Shown piece after piece: positions 6,885-59,012 of a stretch of 64,000 bases of DNA. The stretch's first letter is position 1. The number at the start of each line of letters is the position of its first letter. Made by a program: the position numbers and the translations under genes. The stretch comes from the human T2T-CHM13v2.0 reference genome, Homo sapiens: NCBI RefSeq assembly GCF_009914755.1, contig NC_060940.1; one strand, written 5' to 3'. The notes beneath the pieces are model-generated. The model was not told the DNA's origin. It worked only from the letters and a program-made list of their open reading frames with translations, and ran no database searches.

Positions 6885-7030
6885 CCGTGTGGTGGTTAAG
6901 AGCGAGGGCTCGGGAGTCAGGGCGCCTGGGTTCGAACCCTGACCCCGTCGCTCTTGGCTGTGTGACCTTGGACAAGTCGCTTAATTTCTCAGAGTCTCCG
7001 TATCCCCACCTGTAAAGCGAGAGGATGCGA
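6885..7030 (+). mobile_element. MIR SINE with intact B box
   Basis: gtggttaagagc...ctgggttcgaaccct...gctgtgtgaccttggacaagtcgcttaa...ctgtaaa matches the MIR head and core. Confidence 0.85.
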
Positions 7031-34908: not shown

Positions 34909-35032
34909 TGGATAACCAGGCCATGCTGCACTACATCCGAGATAAAACTGCTGTTCCTTACTTCTCCAATTTGGTCTGGTTCATTGGGAGCCATGTGATC
35001 GAACTCGATGACTGCGTGCAGACTGATGAGGA
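34909..35032 (+). CDS. CLEC16A: CLEC16A exon 7 (124 nt; DNQAMLHYIRDKTAVPYFSNLVWFIGSHVIELDDCVQTDEE)
   Basis: ttttctcag acceptor; GA|GTAAGT donor; frame consistent. Confidence 0.96.
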
Positions 35033-37031: not shown

Positions 37032-38265
<1,234 letters not shown>

Positions 38266-39195: not shown

Positions 39196-39767
<572 letters not shown>

Positions 39768-44962: not shown

Positions 44963-45826
44963 GTAAGTCATTAGCTTCGGGACTGACCTTAACAGGAAAC
45001 CATTGCTCATTTTGCTAATCTGTGTGTTTCTCTAAAATCAGAAACTAACATTCTGAATATATAGCAGTGATGATGCATAAGCTGGTCCGGGATTCAGTGA
45101 ACCTAATCAGAGTCTTGATTGCATACCCAAGAGAAGCTGGGATCAGGGACCACCTGGATTTGATTGATTGTGTGTTCTTAAACATGGAATTGTACCACTC
45201 CGGGCCTTAGGTTGCATATCTGTGAGACACTGTTATCGGGACACAGTGAGAAAATGCCTTATCAGAGGAACTAATGTCTACAGAAGTTGGGCGATGAACA
45301 TCCATGAATGACTCAGGCCCCAGGTGAGGGCAGTAGAGAGTGGCGAGGGGTGTGGCAAATTGGAGAGTGTATGCCACCTTGGCGAGCAGCTCCTGTTCTA
45401 CCCCAGGCTGCTGCTGTTCTGCAGGAATATGGATGTAGGATTACTAGGTTTTTTCATGTTTCTAGAGAAGCGGGAAAAACGCATTGTTACGTGTAATCTC
45501 TAGTTTTAAATGATCATCAAGCTTTGGACTAAGTAGCATGTTTGTGGTCTGCAGGAAGGAGCTTTGGCGTTCCATTTGGTACACTGCTGAGGGAAAACAC
45601 CTGATGGCCAGTGTTGTGACTTCTCTTGAAGCTTTTCCATCTTGTCCTCTGTATATCTCTGCTGTCATCTCTCAGATCCTGCTCACATGTCCTGAGCTCC
45701 AGCTGCCTTAATCCTGGTCTGACTTGCTTTTCCCCCAGCATGTCCAGCATTTGTGCCTTTGAACCTGCGCCTTTACCGTACCTACAGCCTGGTTCCTGAT
45801 GCACCTGGTTCCCTCTTTTCAAAGGT

Positions 45827-45985
45827 CTTACCCACTCTAAGCTCCTTATGGCAGGGATCTCACCTGTCACTGAATCAGCTGCAGTCTGGGCTGCACAAAT
45901 GCTCATCTCACTTATGCGGAGCCCAGGCTGCAGCTGATTCAGTGACAGGTGAGATCCCTGCCATAAGGAGCTTAGAGTGGGTAAG
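45827..45985. repeat. Inverted repeat with 66-bp arms (45827-45892 / 45920-45985) and 27-nt spacer
   Basis: Arms are reverse complements at 65/66 positions; the ORF track shows the same peptide AADSVTGEIPAIRSLEWV on both strands. Confidence 0.97.
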
Positions 45986-46890
45986 TGAGATGAGCATAGT
46001 GCGTTTTATACAAGGGCTGTTTCATAAAGGTTTCCTCTCTGCAGCCAGGTGCTCAGGCAGTGGCCAGGCTGGTAAAAGGGCCAGCTCGCCCTGGGGTAGT
46101 AGATTTGCTGCCCCACCTACATGAATGGGTGGAATGTGACCCTGTGGATGAAAGGCCACCACTGCATGGAGTACAATTACAAGAGGCCCCTGCCCTTCCA
46201 CTGGTTTTGGTGTATGATGGTCTGGCCAGGTCATTTTGTTATTCAGGGGAGCATTAGCGCCTCTGAAAAGCTTCCCAGAAACTCTGTCCTTGTTAGTGGT
46301 GGTGGCATTAGTGAATTGATTGGGGCCTTTTCATGGCCCCTGTCTGGCCTATCCCTTTCTTGATTCATTCAGCAGTGTTGATGGAGCTCTTTCTTTGGGC
46401 CAAGTATCATGCTAGTTCTGGGGATACACAATGTCATAAAGAGTCTGTGCCATATTCGAGCTTTACAGTACAGTAGAGAGGTGGACATGGATCAGATATG
46501 CAAATAACTCACTGTCTTAACTCTTATAAGCGCTCTAAAGGGAAGAAGTGTTTGGTGAGAGGCTTTGGCCTAGAGGTGACAGGGGTGATGTGTTAAAGAT
46601 TTTCCTAGTGGTCCATCTCATGACAACACACGGTCTGGCAAATGTACAGCTGACTCAGAGTTTATGGGGCCCTAGATATTTCTCTGCAACTTTCTTAAAC
46701 TAGCGTTTGCTAAATGAATGTAAGTCACGGAAGGCTGAGTCAGCAGAATCAGCAGGGCCTCCAGTTAGAGGTGCAGAGTGCCCTGCCAGCCACCTGGTCT
46801 CGGGCAGGTTGTTTCACTCCATTTAGAAAACAGGCAGCGCAAGCCCTGCTCTAGAGAGCTGATGGAGATGGGGGCAAAATATAAAGTGCC

Positions 46891-56787: not shown

Positions 56788-57003
<216 letters not shown>

Positions 57004-59012
57004 TCACATTATAGACAACCATATAATTGTCAGGCTAGAGGACCACCTGTTGAGTGATGCATAAACTGTCACTGCATTTTTGTTGCAAAGAGCTACTGTT
57101 TCTCTGATTAGTGTGACGTCGGCATGGCCTAGTCTTTACATCAGTGCTCCCGGGAGGCTGGCCCAACGTTGGGAGGTGCAGCAAATGCATATGGAAGGGA
57201 ATCGTGTTTGAGCCATGTGGCAGGAAGGTTGTGCACCTGGGCACTGGGGCTAGTTTATTCCTGGGTTCAAATCCTGCCTCTGCCTCTCACTAGTGGGTGA
57301 CCTTGGGCAAGATCCTCACCTGTGTAGTTCCTTGCCCCATTTGGTTATTTGTAGGATAAAGCAAGACAGTGTATATAAAGTGTTCAGAGCCATGCTGGGC
57401 ACATTTTAAGTGTTCACTGAGTATTCAGGATGGCTGTTATTACCTGGAAAGAGTAACAAGAGTGTGCCATCTCTTGGCACCTCTCAGCAGCACTGTTGGG
57501 GAGATGCTAATATGATGCCCATTGATGGCTGTGGCAACTGAGACCTATAGAGGAGAAGGTAGGAAGCAGTGGAGCCAGGACTGAAACCACGGTGGATGGG
57601 ACCCTGGGCCTCTGAATCCCACCCTGGCTTTGTACCTTGCTGTGTACCTTGCCAGTCCTGGCGCCTGAGGCCGGAGATGGGGAAGGTTAGCCAGGGGCCC
57701 AGGAGCATGTTGGGGAGGCTGAGTCTAGCCCACTAACAAAGCAGAAGGCCAGCGAGCAGTAAGTTGCTGGGAGCTTGGGAGTCAAGTTTAAAGCATAGAA
57801 CATGACTGTTCTTTAAAAGCCCCTCCCCTGCCCTCTCTTCCATCCTCGTGATCTATTTGCCAGGGGGTTGAAGGGCAATGAAAATTTCTCTGGTGCCCCC
57901 TTGTACCAGGCATTTTGCCTGTTGGATCCCACACTACCCCCATGGTGGCGTGTGATATGGAACTACTCTTGTCTCTGTTTTACAGATGAGGAACTGAGGC
58001 TCCTGTGGTCAGGGTCGCTTGGCTAGTAGAATGTGGGTCTCAGACTTGGGGCCAGGTCTGCCTGGGCATGTTTTTTGTTAGTCACCATGGCCTGTCTCCT
58101 TTCTTAAGGGGAAAACCTTTCTCCTACTTCTCAAATCGCTTAGCAGAGCTGTTTGAGGAAGCATCCTCAGAGGGTGAGTAGGCTCGGCCTAGGAGAGCCT
58201 GGAAGGGTCTTCTTAGCTTGATTATCACAACAGCTTTGATAGATTCAGACAGAATCTCAGGCCCTGGAATCTCTCCTTCCTTTACCTGATGCCTCTGGCC
58301 ACCGGTCTCTCTTTCCTTCGTGCTCAACCAAGATTCTTCCCTGGGCAGGCTGCCTGGTGCCCTTACATCCCCTTTCCTGGTCACTCGCCAACAACTGCTT
58401 TCTCCCCTCCCTGCTGCCCCACTGAATAGATGCTGAGAAACCCACTCAACACGTTGCATCTATAGGGCATTGAGTCAAGGTATCTGATATCTCTTCTGAG
58501 GCTGTGAGCCTGAAGAACCCCTTTGTGAGCAGCACGGGCTAGTGCCTGACTGAGAGGCTACTGGCTGGCCGGGGACCACTGCCCTGACTTCCTGCAAAGT
58601 CCAGCGGCTGTGCATCTGCCCCTACCTGGGGAGCTGGCCGAGCACCTTGGGTCCAAGGGTACCACCACTGTCACCAAGCACCAGCCCCAGGTGACCTAGG
58701 CCTTAGCAGAAGTAAAAGGTGAGTGGCTTCTGGGCACACCTAGAGAGCTGGCTCCTCCTGGGCTCTGAGCTGGCTTTCCTACTATTCTTTCCTTCCTGAG
58801 CATGCTGCTGAAGTCCTGTTGACATCCAAGACTTGTATCAGTCATTTCCTCCTCTATCAAGCCGTCCTAAGCTCCCCCTATGCCTCCCAGCCCTGGCGCA
58901 TTTTCCCTCCCTTCCTCTGCGGCCCCATCACTCTTGTGTGAACCTCTTCTCTTCCAGCGTCTGCATGGGCCATGTGGCAATAAATGCAGGATTCACCAGG
59001 ATTCACCTGTCT

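What the first reader, a model, noticed from the sequence alone, without database searches (positions are those of the whole stretch)
45827..45997. Non-Alu 66-bp near-perfect hairpin in CLEC16A intron 10 with a templated spacer
Seen: arms 45827-45892 and 45920-45985 are reverse complements at 65/66 positions. The one difference is a G-U wobble in the sense pre-mRNA, so the RNA stem would be 66 bp without interruption. Seen: 16 nt of the spacer (ATGCTCATCTCACTTA, 45899-45914) are the exact reverse complement of 45982-45997, which runs past the end of the right arm. Inference: this looks like the scar of a multi-step replication template switch (FoSTeS/MMBIR-type fold-back), and the high identity suggests a recent origin or selection for pairing. 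Established: uninterrupted dsRNA of this length can be an ADAR substrate and may feed Drosha/Dicer or PKR; the DNA could form a cruciform. I do not recognise it as a known repeat or miRNA.
Basis: partly seen in the sequence, partly recalled or inferred. Interest (0 to 1): 0.8.

Follow-up and report, generated by a model that had tools for sequence, protein, structure and literature searches.

The report
Intronic hairpin left by template switching
A real, single-copy, near-perfect 66-bp inverted duplication in a CLEC16A intron is most likely the harmless scar of a DNA copying slip (a template switch), a known kind of mutation, with no sign so far that it has a function.

Summary
Arms 45827-45892 and 45920-45985 are complementary at 65 of 66 positions. 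The one difference (45885 T / 45927 G) is a G.U pair in the sense RNA. The 16-mer 45899-45914 is the exact reverse complement of 45982-45997, and with one indel this second repeat extends to 45893-45914 / 45982-46002.

The structure folds far better than shuffles (z -16.8) and is single-copy in the assembly. It reaches no Rfam gathering score and is neither an Alu pair nor a multicopy palindromic element. Only a 26-46 nt core of each arm matches an old dispersed repeat.

The layout (arm, inverted copy of downstream sequence, spacer, inverted arm, downstream sequence) is what the published four-point template-switch model calls type 3-1-4-2. One switch-and-return from a hypothetical ancestor rebuilds the locus except for three positions. 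A two-excursion version rebuilds it except for one.

Which parts are ancestral is unresolved because no outgroup sequence was available. Near-identity needs only a recent origin, and a single wobble is expected by chance about one time in three. Function (editing, small RNAs) is untested, and published base rates are about 1%. This is an ordinary new member of a known kind.

The parts
45827..45892 (+). Left arm (66 nt). It begins with the 4-nt word CTTA that recurs at 45911-45914.
   Evidence: 65 of 66 positions complementary to 45920-45985. A 39-nt core, 45834-45872, matches an old dispersed-repeat profile at 12.1 bits, E 2.9e-5.
45893..45919 (+). 27-nt spacer, the loop of the hairpin. It contains the 16-mer 45899-45914, extended to 45893-45914, which is the reverse complement of sequence just past the right arm.
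   Evidence: 16 of 16 exact. The extended alignment has 20 matches, 1 mismatch and 1 gap. The spacer's own weak quasi-palindrome is not better than shuffles: 22 and 25 of 200 shuffles fold as well.
45920..45985 (+). Right arm (66 nt), the reverse complement of the left arm. It ends in TAAG, which is shared with the second repeat.
   Evidence: The profile core match on the - strand is 45978-45950, 12.0 bits.
45982..46002 (+). Right-hand copy of the second inverted repeat. It is exact over 45982-45997 and continues to 46002 after a T-versus-AA discrepancy.
45885..45885 (+). The only arm difference: T here against G at 45927. This is G.U in the sense pre-mRNA and A.C in antisense RNA.

Best explanation
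This is a single-locus scar of local template switching during DNA synthesis, at a replication fork or in repair synthesis. A polymerase left its template, copied nearby sequence in reverse-complement orientation, and returned.

Two reconstructions fit, and they cannot be told apart here.

Model E is one switch-and-return, the four-point type 3-1-4-2. The ancestor is the left arm, then the reverse complement of 45911-45919, then 45986 onward. The derived block is 45893-45985. The return is guided by the 4-nt TAAG microhomology.

Model A is two excursions. The ancestor is everything up to 45919 joined directly to 45998 onward. The derived block is the 78 nt 45920-45997, copied first from the left arm and then, after a jump at CTTA/TAAG, from the spacer 16-mer.

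In both models the left arm is ancestral. A mirror model with the right arm ancestral needs 6 untemplated bases.

The near-identity reflects youth, not constraint. From one difference in 66-82 paired sites and recalled human mutation rates, the age is of the order of 5-15 million years, with a 95% range of about 0.2-70 million years (inference).

In the CLEC16A pre-mRNA the arms should snap into a 66-bp stem with a 27-nt loop. That stem is structurally a good nuclear ADAR substrate, and it leaves with the intron. No function is implied.
For: Shown:
- The inverted repeats are real and far beyond chance.
- The locus is single-copy in the 3.1-Gb assembly. The 221-nt and 280-nt queries hit only the locus itself.
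- Applying the models in silico over 45700-46100 (401 nt), model A leaves 1 mismatch. Model E, with the second switch point 5 nt past 45997, leaves 2 mismatches and 1 gap column. The mirror model B leaves 1 mismatch plus 6 unexplained bases.
- No direct-repeat target-site duplication is visible at the arm ends (reading).
- The loop 16-mer and its partner lie at opposite ends of a 66-bp stem, so they cannot pair while the stem stands. This marks the second repeat as a scar, not a design (inference).

Base rates from Monttinen et al. 2023 (PMC10710096, section 9 read): 53,666 putative template-switch mutations in genic regions on the primate-to-human lineage, 31,007 making a new RNA stem, 6,054 miRNA-sized, and 57 of those 6,054 (0.9%) annotated as miRNAs.
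Against: - No outgroup or second human assembly could be consulted, so the ancestral state and the polarity are inferred from parsimony only.
- The attempt to fix polarity by colinearity with the old repeat family failed. A small 13-copy profile favoured a + oriented element spanning both flanks, at 33.0/30.4/25.9 bits for left-arm-ancestral reconstructions against 21.5 for the mirror. The better 43-sequence profile matched only the core on both strands, at 11.8-12.9 bits for all models. None of 8 flank-versus-consensus shuffle tests was significant, with p from 0.09 to 0.70.
- The first jump has little microhomology: none in model E (reading of the printed sequence, not a count), and 3 of 5 partial pairs in model A. 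The 3 of 5 is my reading of the 5 extra positions in the 71-nt arm report.
- Model E needs a T-versus-AA discrepancy. Model A treats the extra 4-nt match at 45893-45896 as coincidence.
- The copied tract, 78-92 nt, is longer than the 'few tens of base pairs' the 2017 paper speaks of.
- The locus was not found in the readable supplements of two catalogues. That test is weak because my GRCh38 coordinate was estimated from memory and the largest files could not be read.
Confidence: 0.8

Rival explanations
1. The hairpin is a functional RNA element kept by selection. It could be a young intronic miRNA or endo-siRNA precursor, a dedicated ADAR target, or a structure that regulates CLEC16A splicing.
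For: - It lies on the sense strand of an expressed gene's intron, where Monttinen et al. report that template-switch-born miRNAs are enriched (passages).
- The stem has 58 uninterrupted Watson-Crick pairs and a short loop. This matches the preference for more than 30 contiguous bp and small loops reported for edited non-repetitive dsRNAs (PMC11838218, passages).
- The single difference keeps pairing in the sense RNA.
- The stem buries a consensus GTAAGT donor.
Against: - No Rfam family reaches its gathering score. The best hit is 51.2 bits against 81, and the sub-threshold hits fall on both strands and to unrelated hairpin models, so they are generic.
- The stem of 66-71 bp is about twice the roughly 35-bp stem preferred for pri-miRNAs (PMC10710096 passage).
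- The published base rate is 0.9%.
- One wobble is expected by chance about one time in three (inference).
- Four literature searches gave no paper on a hairpin or dsRNA at this locus: the 15 listed rows each had 0 CLEC16A occurrences, and searches found none that concerns this site.
Confidence: 0.05
2. The same templated inverted insertion arose during repair of a double-strand break, by polymerase-theta-type snap-back synthesis in end joining, rather than at a replication fork.
For: The product is a reverse-complement copy of immediately flanking sequence, with 4-nt microhomology at a junction and no loss of flanking DNA under model A. Such end joining is known, from memory, to leave products of this kind.
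Against: Templated insertions from end joining are, as I recall, mostly much shorter than 78-92 nt. Nothing in the sequence tells the two settings apart.
Confidence: 0.15
3. The structure is a palindromic miniature transposon or another known repeat with terminal inverted repeats.
For: Its shape is two long inverted arms around a short spacer. The arm core resembles an old dispersed repeat.
Against: - Whole-genome searches with 221 and 280 nt return only the locus itself.
- The 23-mer core with up to 3 mismatches has 5 matches in 3.1 Gb: the 2 arms and 3 others. Those 3 loci share only 23-24 nt with the region.
- No target-site duplication flanks the arms (reading).
- The tool warns that it skips very common words, and no Dfam library was available.
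Confidence: 0.02
4. The structure is an assembly or sequencing artefact, such as a chimeric fold-back read.
For: Only one assembly could be examined.
Against: The arms are not identical: there is 1 difference. The block also has a two-part templated structure with a second repeat reaching into unique flank. A simple fold-back chimera does not predict that.
Confidence: 0.02

Closest known systems
Template-switch mutations under the four-point model, type 3-1-4-2 (Loytynoja & Goldman 2017, PMC5453318; passages seen)
   Same: A reverse-complement copy of adjacent sequence. Two inverted repeats around an inverted spacer. The layout X, Y', S', X', Y. One switch-and-return rebuilds the locus to within 3 positions.
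   Different: [quoted passage not shown] The ancestral state is not observed here. A two-excursion alternative fits slightly better, with 1 difference.
Template-switch-generated RNA hairpins and de novo miRNA precursors (Monttinen & Loytynoja 2022, PMC8794818, search listing only; Monttinen et al. 2023, PMC10710096, passages and section 9 read)
   Same: A perfect stem created in one event, in a host-gene intron on the sense strand.
   Different: The stem is 66 bp rather than about 35 bp. There is no miRNA annotation or family match. The locus is not in the paper's readable spreadsheet.
FoSTeS/MMBIR complex rearrangements
   Same: Serial microhomology-guided template switches. This corresponds to model A, with three jumps and a 4-nt junction.
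   Different: Those terms describe kilobase-to-megabase copy-number rearrangements. This event is confined to 171 nt and changes length by 72-78 nt.
Inverted Alu pairs and other repeat-derived intronic dsRNAs
   Same: Intramolecular intronic dsRNA that is a potential ADAR substrate. Examples in this window lie at 37235-38066.
   Different: Those arise from two independent insertions, are about 300 bp long and are 71-85% paired. This one is a local self-copy, 66 bp long and 98.5% paired.

Membership tests
Template-switch mutation (four-point model) | The derived segment is a reverse-complement copy of sequence close by. | tested here: met
   65 of 66 and 16 of 16 positions match, all within 171 nt.
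Template-switch mutation (four-point model) | One switch-and-return from a reference sequence reproduces the observed sequence. | tested here: inconclusive
   From a hypothetical ancestor, 2 mismatches and 1 gap column remain over 401 nt. A two-excursion model leaves 1 mismatch. The ancestor is assumed, not observed.
Template-switch mutation (four-point model) | A related genome carries the unswitched ancestral state. | not testable with these tools
   No primate or second human assembly is held. The readable catalogues had no entry, but my coordinate conversion was from memory and the largest files were unreadable.
microRNA gene | A match to a curated miRNA family at its gathering score. | tested here: not met
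   0 matches at gathering score. The best sub-threshold hits are 51.2 bits against 81 and 37.8 against 74, and they occur on both strands.
microRNA gene | A stem of about 35 bp with an apical loop of 10 nt or more (criterion from the PMC10710096 passage). | tested here: not met
   The stem is 66-71 bp. The loop of 17-27 nt does meet the loop criterion.
microRNA gene | Small-RNA reads with defined ends, or Microprocessor dependence. | not testable with these tools
   No expression data were available.
Palindromic miniature transposon | Many dispersed copies of the whole element. | tested here: not met
   Only self-hits were found in the 3.1-Gb assembly. The tool skips very common words, so this is not absolute.
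Palindromic miniature transposon | A target-site duplication at the ends. | tested here: not met
   The flanks next to 45827 and 45985 share no direct repeat (reading).
Old dispersed repeat family (I recall its consensus as the 3' end of LINE L2 / MIR tail; the name comes from no call) | A profile match colinear beyond the core. | tested here: inconclusive
   A 43-sequence profile matches 45834-45872 (+) and 45978-45950 (-) at about 12 bits, E about 3e-5, and nothing in the flanks. The flank shuffle tests gave p 0.09-0.70.
ADAR-editable dsRNA | A long contiguous duplex with a small loop (more than 30 contiguous bp preferred; PMC11838218 passage). | tested here: met
   58 contiguous Watson-Crick pairs, or 66 counting the G.U, with a 27-nt loop.
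ADAR-editable dsRNA | Observed A-to-I editing. | not testable with these tools
   No editing catalogue was available.

The most novel reading that the evidence does not exclude
The template switch created, in one step, a young functional element in an autoimmunity-risk gene. One possibility is a long intronic hairpin that is heavily A-to-I edited or diced into small RNAs. Another is a stem that masks a ready-made cryptic exon. The stretch 45825-45980 is 156 nt. It follows a pyrimidine tract and an AG, ends at a consensus GTAAGT donor formed at the arm/second-repeat junction, and is open in the frame set by exon 10. A presence/absence or spacer-inversion polymorphism could then change CLEC16A splicing or dsRNA load.
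Probability: 0.05. Interest if true: 0.55.

Novelty: new member of a known kind. Interest (0 to 1): 0.25.

Why it matters
On its own this matters little. It is one more of tens of thousands of template-switch scars reported in human genes, and about 99% of the miRNA-sized ones have no annotated product.

It is a clean and unusually long textbook example. The copied tract is 78-92 nt, the stem has 58 uninterrupted pairs, and the second interleaved repeat records the path of the polymerase. With primate assemblies it could therefore serve as a dated test case for one-excursion against two-excursion switching.

It lies in CLEC16A, a gene that the papers listed describe as an autoimmune-disease locus. 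A quick look in editing, small-RNA and pangenome resources is cheap and worth doing.

Tried and rejected
1. Polarity from an old repeat family.
- I collected 13 copies, then 36, and finally 43 aligned sequences in an iterative nhmmer profile.
- Before building I dropped L001-L006 (the locus itself), L022-L024 (identical duplicates of L021) and L015/L018/L040 (the same places as other loci).
- The small profile suggested a + oriented element running through both flanks.
- The better profiles matched only the core, equally on both strands.
- None of 8 flank shuffle tests was significant.
- I therefore rejected this as evidence.

2. The spacer's own 9-bp quasi-palindrome (7 Watson-Crick pairs, seen in the antisense fold) as a nucleation site. 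It is not better than shuffles: 22 and 25 of 200 fold as well.

3. Published catalogues. There was no CLEC16A or chr16 entry in the spreadsheet of PMC10710096, and none of five Rfam-hit miRNA names appeared there. The two readable files of PMC7954356 had no CLEC16A and no coordinate starting 10982, 10983 or 10984. The PDF appendices and one large text file could not be read and may hold the locus.

4. Literature. Four searches found no paper on a hairpin or dsRNA at this site. In some searches only the top 15 of 391 and 9,678 papers were listed, and all of those had 0 CLEC16A occurrences. PMC10325915 concerns an alternative donor of CLEC16A exon 11, which is unrelated.

6. Soft-masking. The window file is all one case, so it gave no repeat information.

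Full report
**1. The observation**

The sequence is as described.
- 45827-45892 and 45920-45985 are reverse complements at 65 of 66 positions. The single difference is T at 45885 against G at 45927.
- CLEC16A is on the + strand, so this is a G.U pair in the pre-mRNA and an A.C mismatch in any antisense RNA.
- The Watson-Crick runs are 58 and 7 bp.
- The spacer 16-mer 45899-45914 is the exact reverse complement of 45982-45997. That stretch overlaps the right arm by the four bases 45982-45985 and then runs 12 nt into the flank.
- With one mismatch and one gap, this second repeat extends to 45893-45914 against 45982-46002, giving 20 matched positions.

The fold is far beyond chance.
- Sense RNA of 45800-46020: -154.2 kcal/mol against a shuffle mean of -71.1, z -16.8, 0 of 200 shuffles as good.
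- DNA: z -17.2.
- Antisense RNA: -159.2 kcal/mol, z -20.0.

A scan of the whole window found 6 close inverted repeats.
- Three lie at 37235-38066, inside stretches that the hub table lists as masked repeats, and are 71-85% complementary.
- Two are short weak pairs of 26-28 nt (75-77% complementary), at 56885-57286 and 6914-6953.
- This one is the only near-perfect pair.

The site is 865 nt past the end of exon 10 of the selected transcript (hub table).

**2. What it is not**

- It is single-copy. Queries of 221 nt and 280 nt against the 3.1-Gb assembly returned only the locus and its own palindromic self-match. Nothing else in the window resembles it.
- No Rfam family reaches its gathering score. 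In the permissive search, the 13 matches with E up to 10 include several miRNA hairpin models. All are well below threshold (51.2 against 81, 37.8 against 74, 32.2 against 100 bits), and two of those models (MIR845_1, mir-1538) hit on both strands. That is what a generic long hairpin gives.
- I see no target-site duplication at the arm ends.
- It is therefore not an Alu pair, not a multicopy palindromic element and not a known miRNA.

**3. Relation to an old repeat**

The arm core (23 nt), searched with up to 3 mismatches, has 5 matches in the genome: the 2 arms and 3 others. The reversed control pattern gave 0. Those three loci share only 23-24 nt with the region. Their own flanks show that they are copies of an old dispersed repeat.

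A second pattern gave 11 matches. A 310-nt copy used as query gave 40 scored matches from 126 candidates. I recall this consensus as the 3' end of LINE L2 / the MIR tail. That name comes from memory, not from a call.

An iterative profile of 43 sequences matches 45834-45872 on the + strand (12.1 bits, E 2.9e-5) and 45978-45950 on the - strand (12.0 bits). It matches nothing in the flanks. So the arms carry a fragment of an old repeat, but the palindrome itself is a local, later product.

**4. Anatomy and mechanism**

Name the parts as follows.
- X: the left arm.
- Y': 45893-45910.
- S': 45911-45919.
- X': the right arm.
- Y: 45986-46002.

The order X, Y', S', X', Y is what the four-point template-switch model produces when the switch points lie in the order 3-1-4-2. 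[quoted passage not shown]

I applied the models in a script over 45700-46100, 401 nt.
- Model E is one excursion. The ancestor is the left arm, the reverse complement of 45911-45919, and 45986 onward. With the second switch point 5 nt beyond 45997, it rebuilds the observed sequence except for the arm substitution and a T-versus-AA discrepancy at 45897-45898.
- Model A is two excursions. The ancestor is the sequence up to 45919 joined to 45998 onward. The 78-nt block 45920-45997 is copied from the left arm and then, after a jump at the shared 4-nt word, from the spacer 16-mer. It rebuilds everything except the arm substitution.
- The mirror model, with the right arm ancestral, leaves 6 bases untemplated.

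In both E and A the 4-nt TAAG/CTTA overlap is a microhomology junction.

I put template switching of some form at about 0.8. Within it I give model A about 0.4, model E about 0.35, and the mirror or other paths the rest. Whether synthesis was at a fork or in break repair cannot be read from the sequence.

**5. Attempts to fix the polarity**

If the old repeat ran colinearly through one arm and both flanks, that arm would be ancestral.
- A 13-copy profile pointed that way. It gave a + strand hit over 45793-45915, only the arm on the - strand, and a weak + hit at 45991-46033 with E 0.44.
- With that profile the reconstructed ancestors scored 33.0, 30.4 and 25.9 bits, against 21.5 for the mirror.
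- The better profiles did not reproduce this. All models scored 11.8-12.9 bits.
- None of 8 flank-versus-consensus alignments beat shuffles, with p from 0.09 to 0.70.

I treat polarity as unresolved.

The spacer also has a 9-bp quasi-palindrome that shows up in the antisense fold. It is no better than shuffles.

**6. Age and selection**

One difference in 66 arm pairs, or in 82 pairs counting the exact 16-mer, is about the human-chimpanzee level of divergence.
- With recalled mutation rates of 0.5-1 x 10^-9 per site per year acting on both copies, the point estimate is roughly 5-15 million years.
- The Poisson range is about 0.2-70 million years. This is inference, and it ignores any conversion between the arms.

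A single substitution in a Watson-Crick pair yields a sense-strand G.U in about one case in three: half of transitions do so, and transitions are about two thirds of changes (inference). The wobble therefore says nothing about selection.

**7. Likely behaviour**

In the pre-mRNA the arms are 27 nt apart and should pair as soon as the right arm is transcribed.
- The duplex meets the structural preference reported for edited non-repetitive dsRNAs, namely more than 30 contiguous bp and a small loop (PMC11838218, passages).
- It is far below the 300 bp or more given there for MDA5.
- Being intronic, it should stay nuclear and be degraded with the intron (inference).
- It is about twice the stem length preferred by the Microprocessor, which is about 35 bp (PMC10710096 passage).
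- The loop 16-mer and its partner sit at opposite ends of a 66-bp helix and cannot pair while the helix stands. The second repeat therefore has no structural role in the RNA (inference).

The base rates argue for neutrality. Monttinen et al. 2023 (section 9 read) report:
- 53,666 putative template-switch mutations in genic regions on the human lineage;
- 31,007 of them making new stems;
- 6,054 of miRNA size;
- 57 of those 6,054 (0.9%) annotated as miRNAs.

**8. Is it in print?**

Four full-text searches found no paper on a hairpin, palindrome, template switch or dsRNA at this site.
- paired CLEC16A with dsRNA, RNA editing and inverted repeat. The 15 of 391 papers listed all had 0 CLEC16A occurrences.
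- paired CLEC16A with 'intron 10' and returned 8 papers. By title and abstract start, none concerns this site.
- paired CLEC16A with hairpin, palindrome, template switch, cruciform and intronic miRNA. The 15 of 9,678 papers listed all had 0 CLEC16A occurrences.
- paired CLEC16A with 'inverted repeat'. It found 4 papers and listed 2, both unrelated.

The readable supplements of two template-switch catalogues do not list the locus. However:
- my GRCh38 coordinate was estimated from memory;
- the PDF appendices and one large text file could not be read;
- the list of 53,666 genic events was not among the files held.

**9. Verdict**

The structure is real and was correctly seen, and its origin was mostly correctly read. 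It belongs to a known and numerous class. No function is indicated and none could be tested.

I rate the interest at 0.25. The boldest reading still open is a young functional dsRNA, or a stem masking a cryptic exon, in an autoimmunity gene. I give that about 0.05.

Noticed in passing
window 45823-45986: The hairpin coincides with an exon-like unit. A pyrimidine tract and an AG end at 45824. Then come 156 nt (45825-45980) that translate without a stop (52 codons). A consensus GTAAGT follows at 45981-45986, formed at the junction of the right arm and the second repeat. The coding parts in the hub table sum to 1071 nt up to the end of exon 10, so the frame would be kept. An open frame of 52 codons has about an 8% chance. 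Both splice-like sites sit at the base of the stem, and the donor is paired with the left arm. The hub table shows no such exon.
   Followed up: partly
window 46363-46486, - strand: A second, better-preserved fragment of the same old dispersed repeat lies about 380 nt downstream of the hairpin in the opposite orientation (13.7 bits, E 9.4e-6, profile positions 155-288). It has its own core and is not the source of either arm.
   Followed up: partly
window 37235-38066: Three overlapping inverted-repeat pairs have arms of 84-112 nt and 71-85% complementarity. They lie in stretches the hub table lists as masked repeats, between the exons at 34909-35032 and 39196-39370. This looks like an ordinary inverted pair of interspersed repeats, a conventional intronic dsRNA candidate.
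   Followed up: no
window 6914-6953: A 26-nt overlapping palindrome with 77% complementarity lies just downstream of CLEC16A exon 1. I did not examine it.
   Followed up: no
loci L021-L024 (G000 contig C1, around 120.3-120.6 Mb and 145.6-145.9 Mb): Four copies of one old-repeat fragment gave identical or near-identical scores. They therefore lie in large, recent segmental duplications. I kept only one of them for the profile.
   Followed up: no
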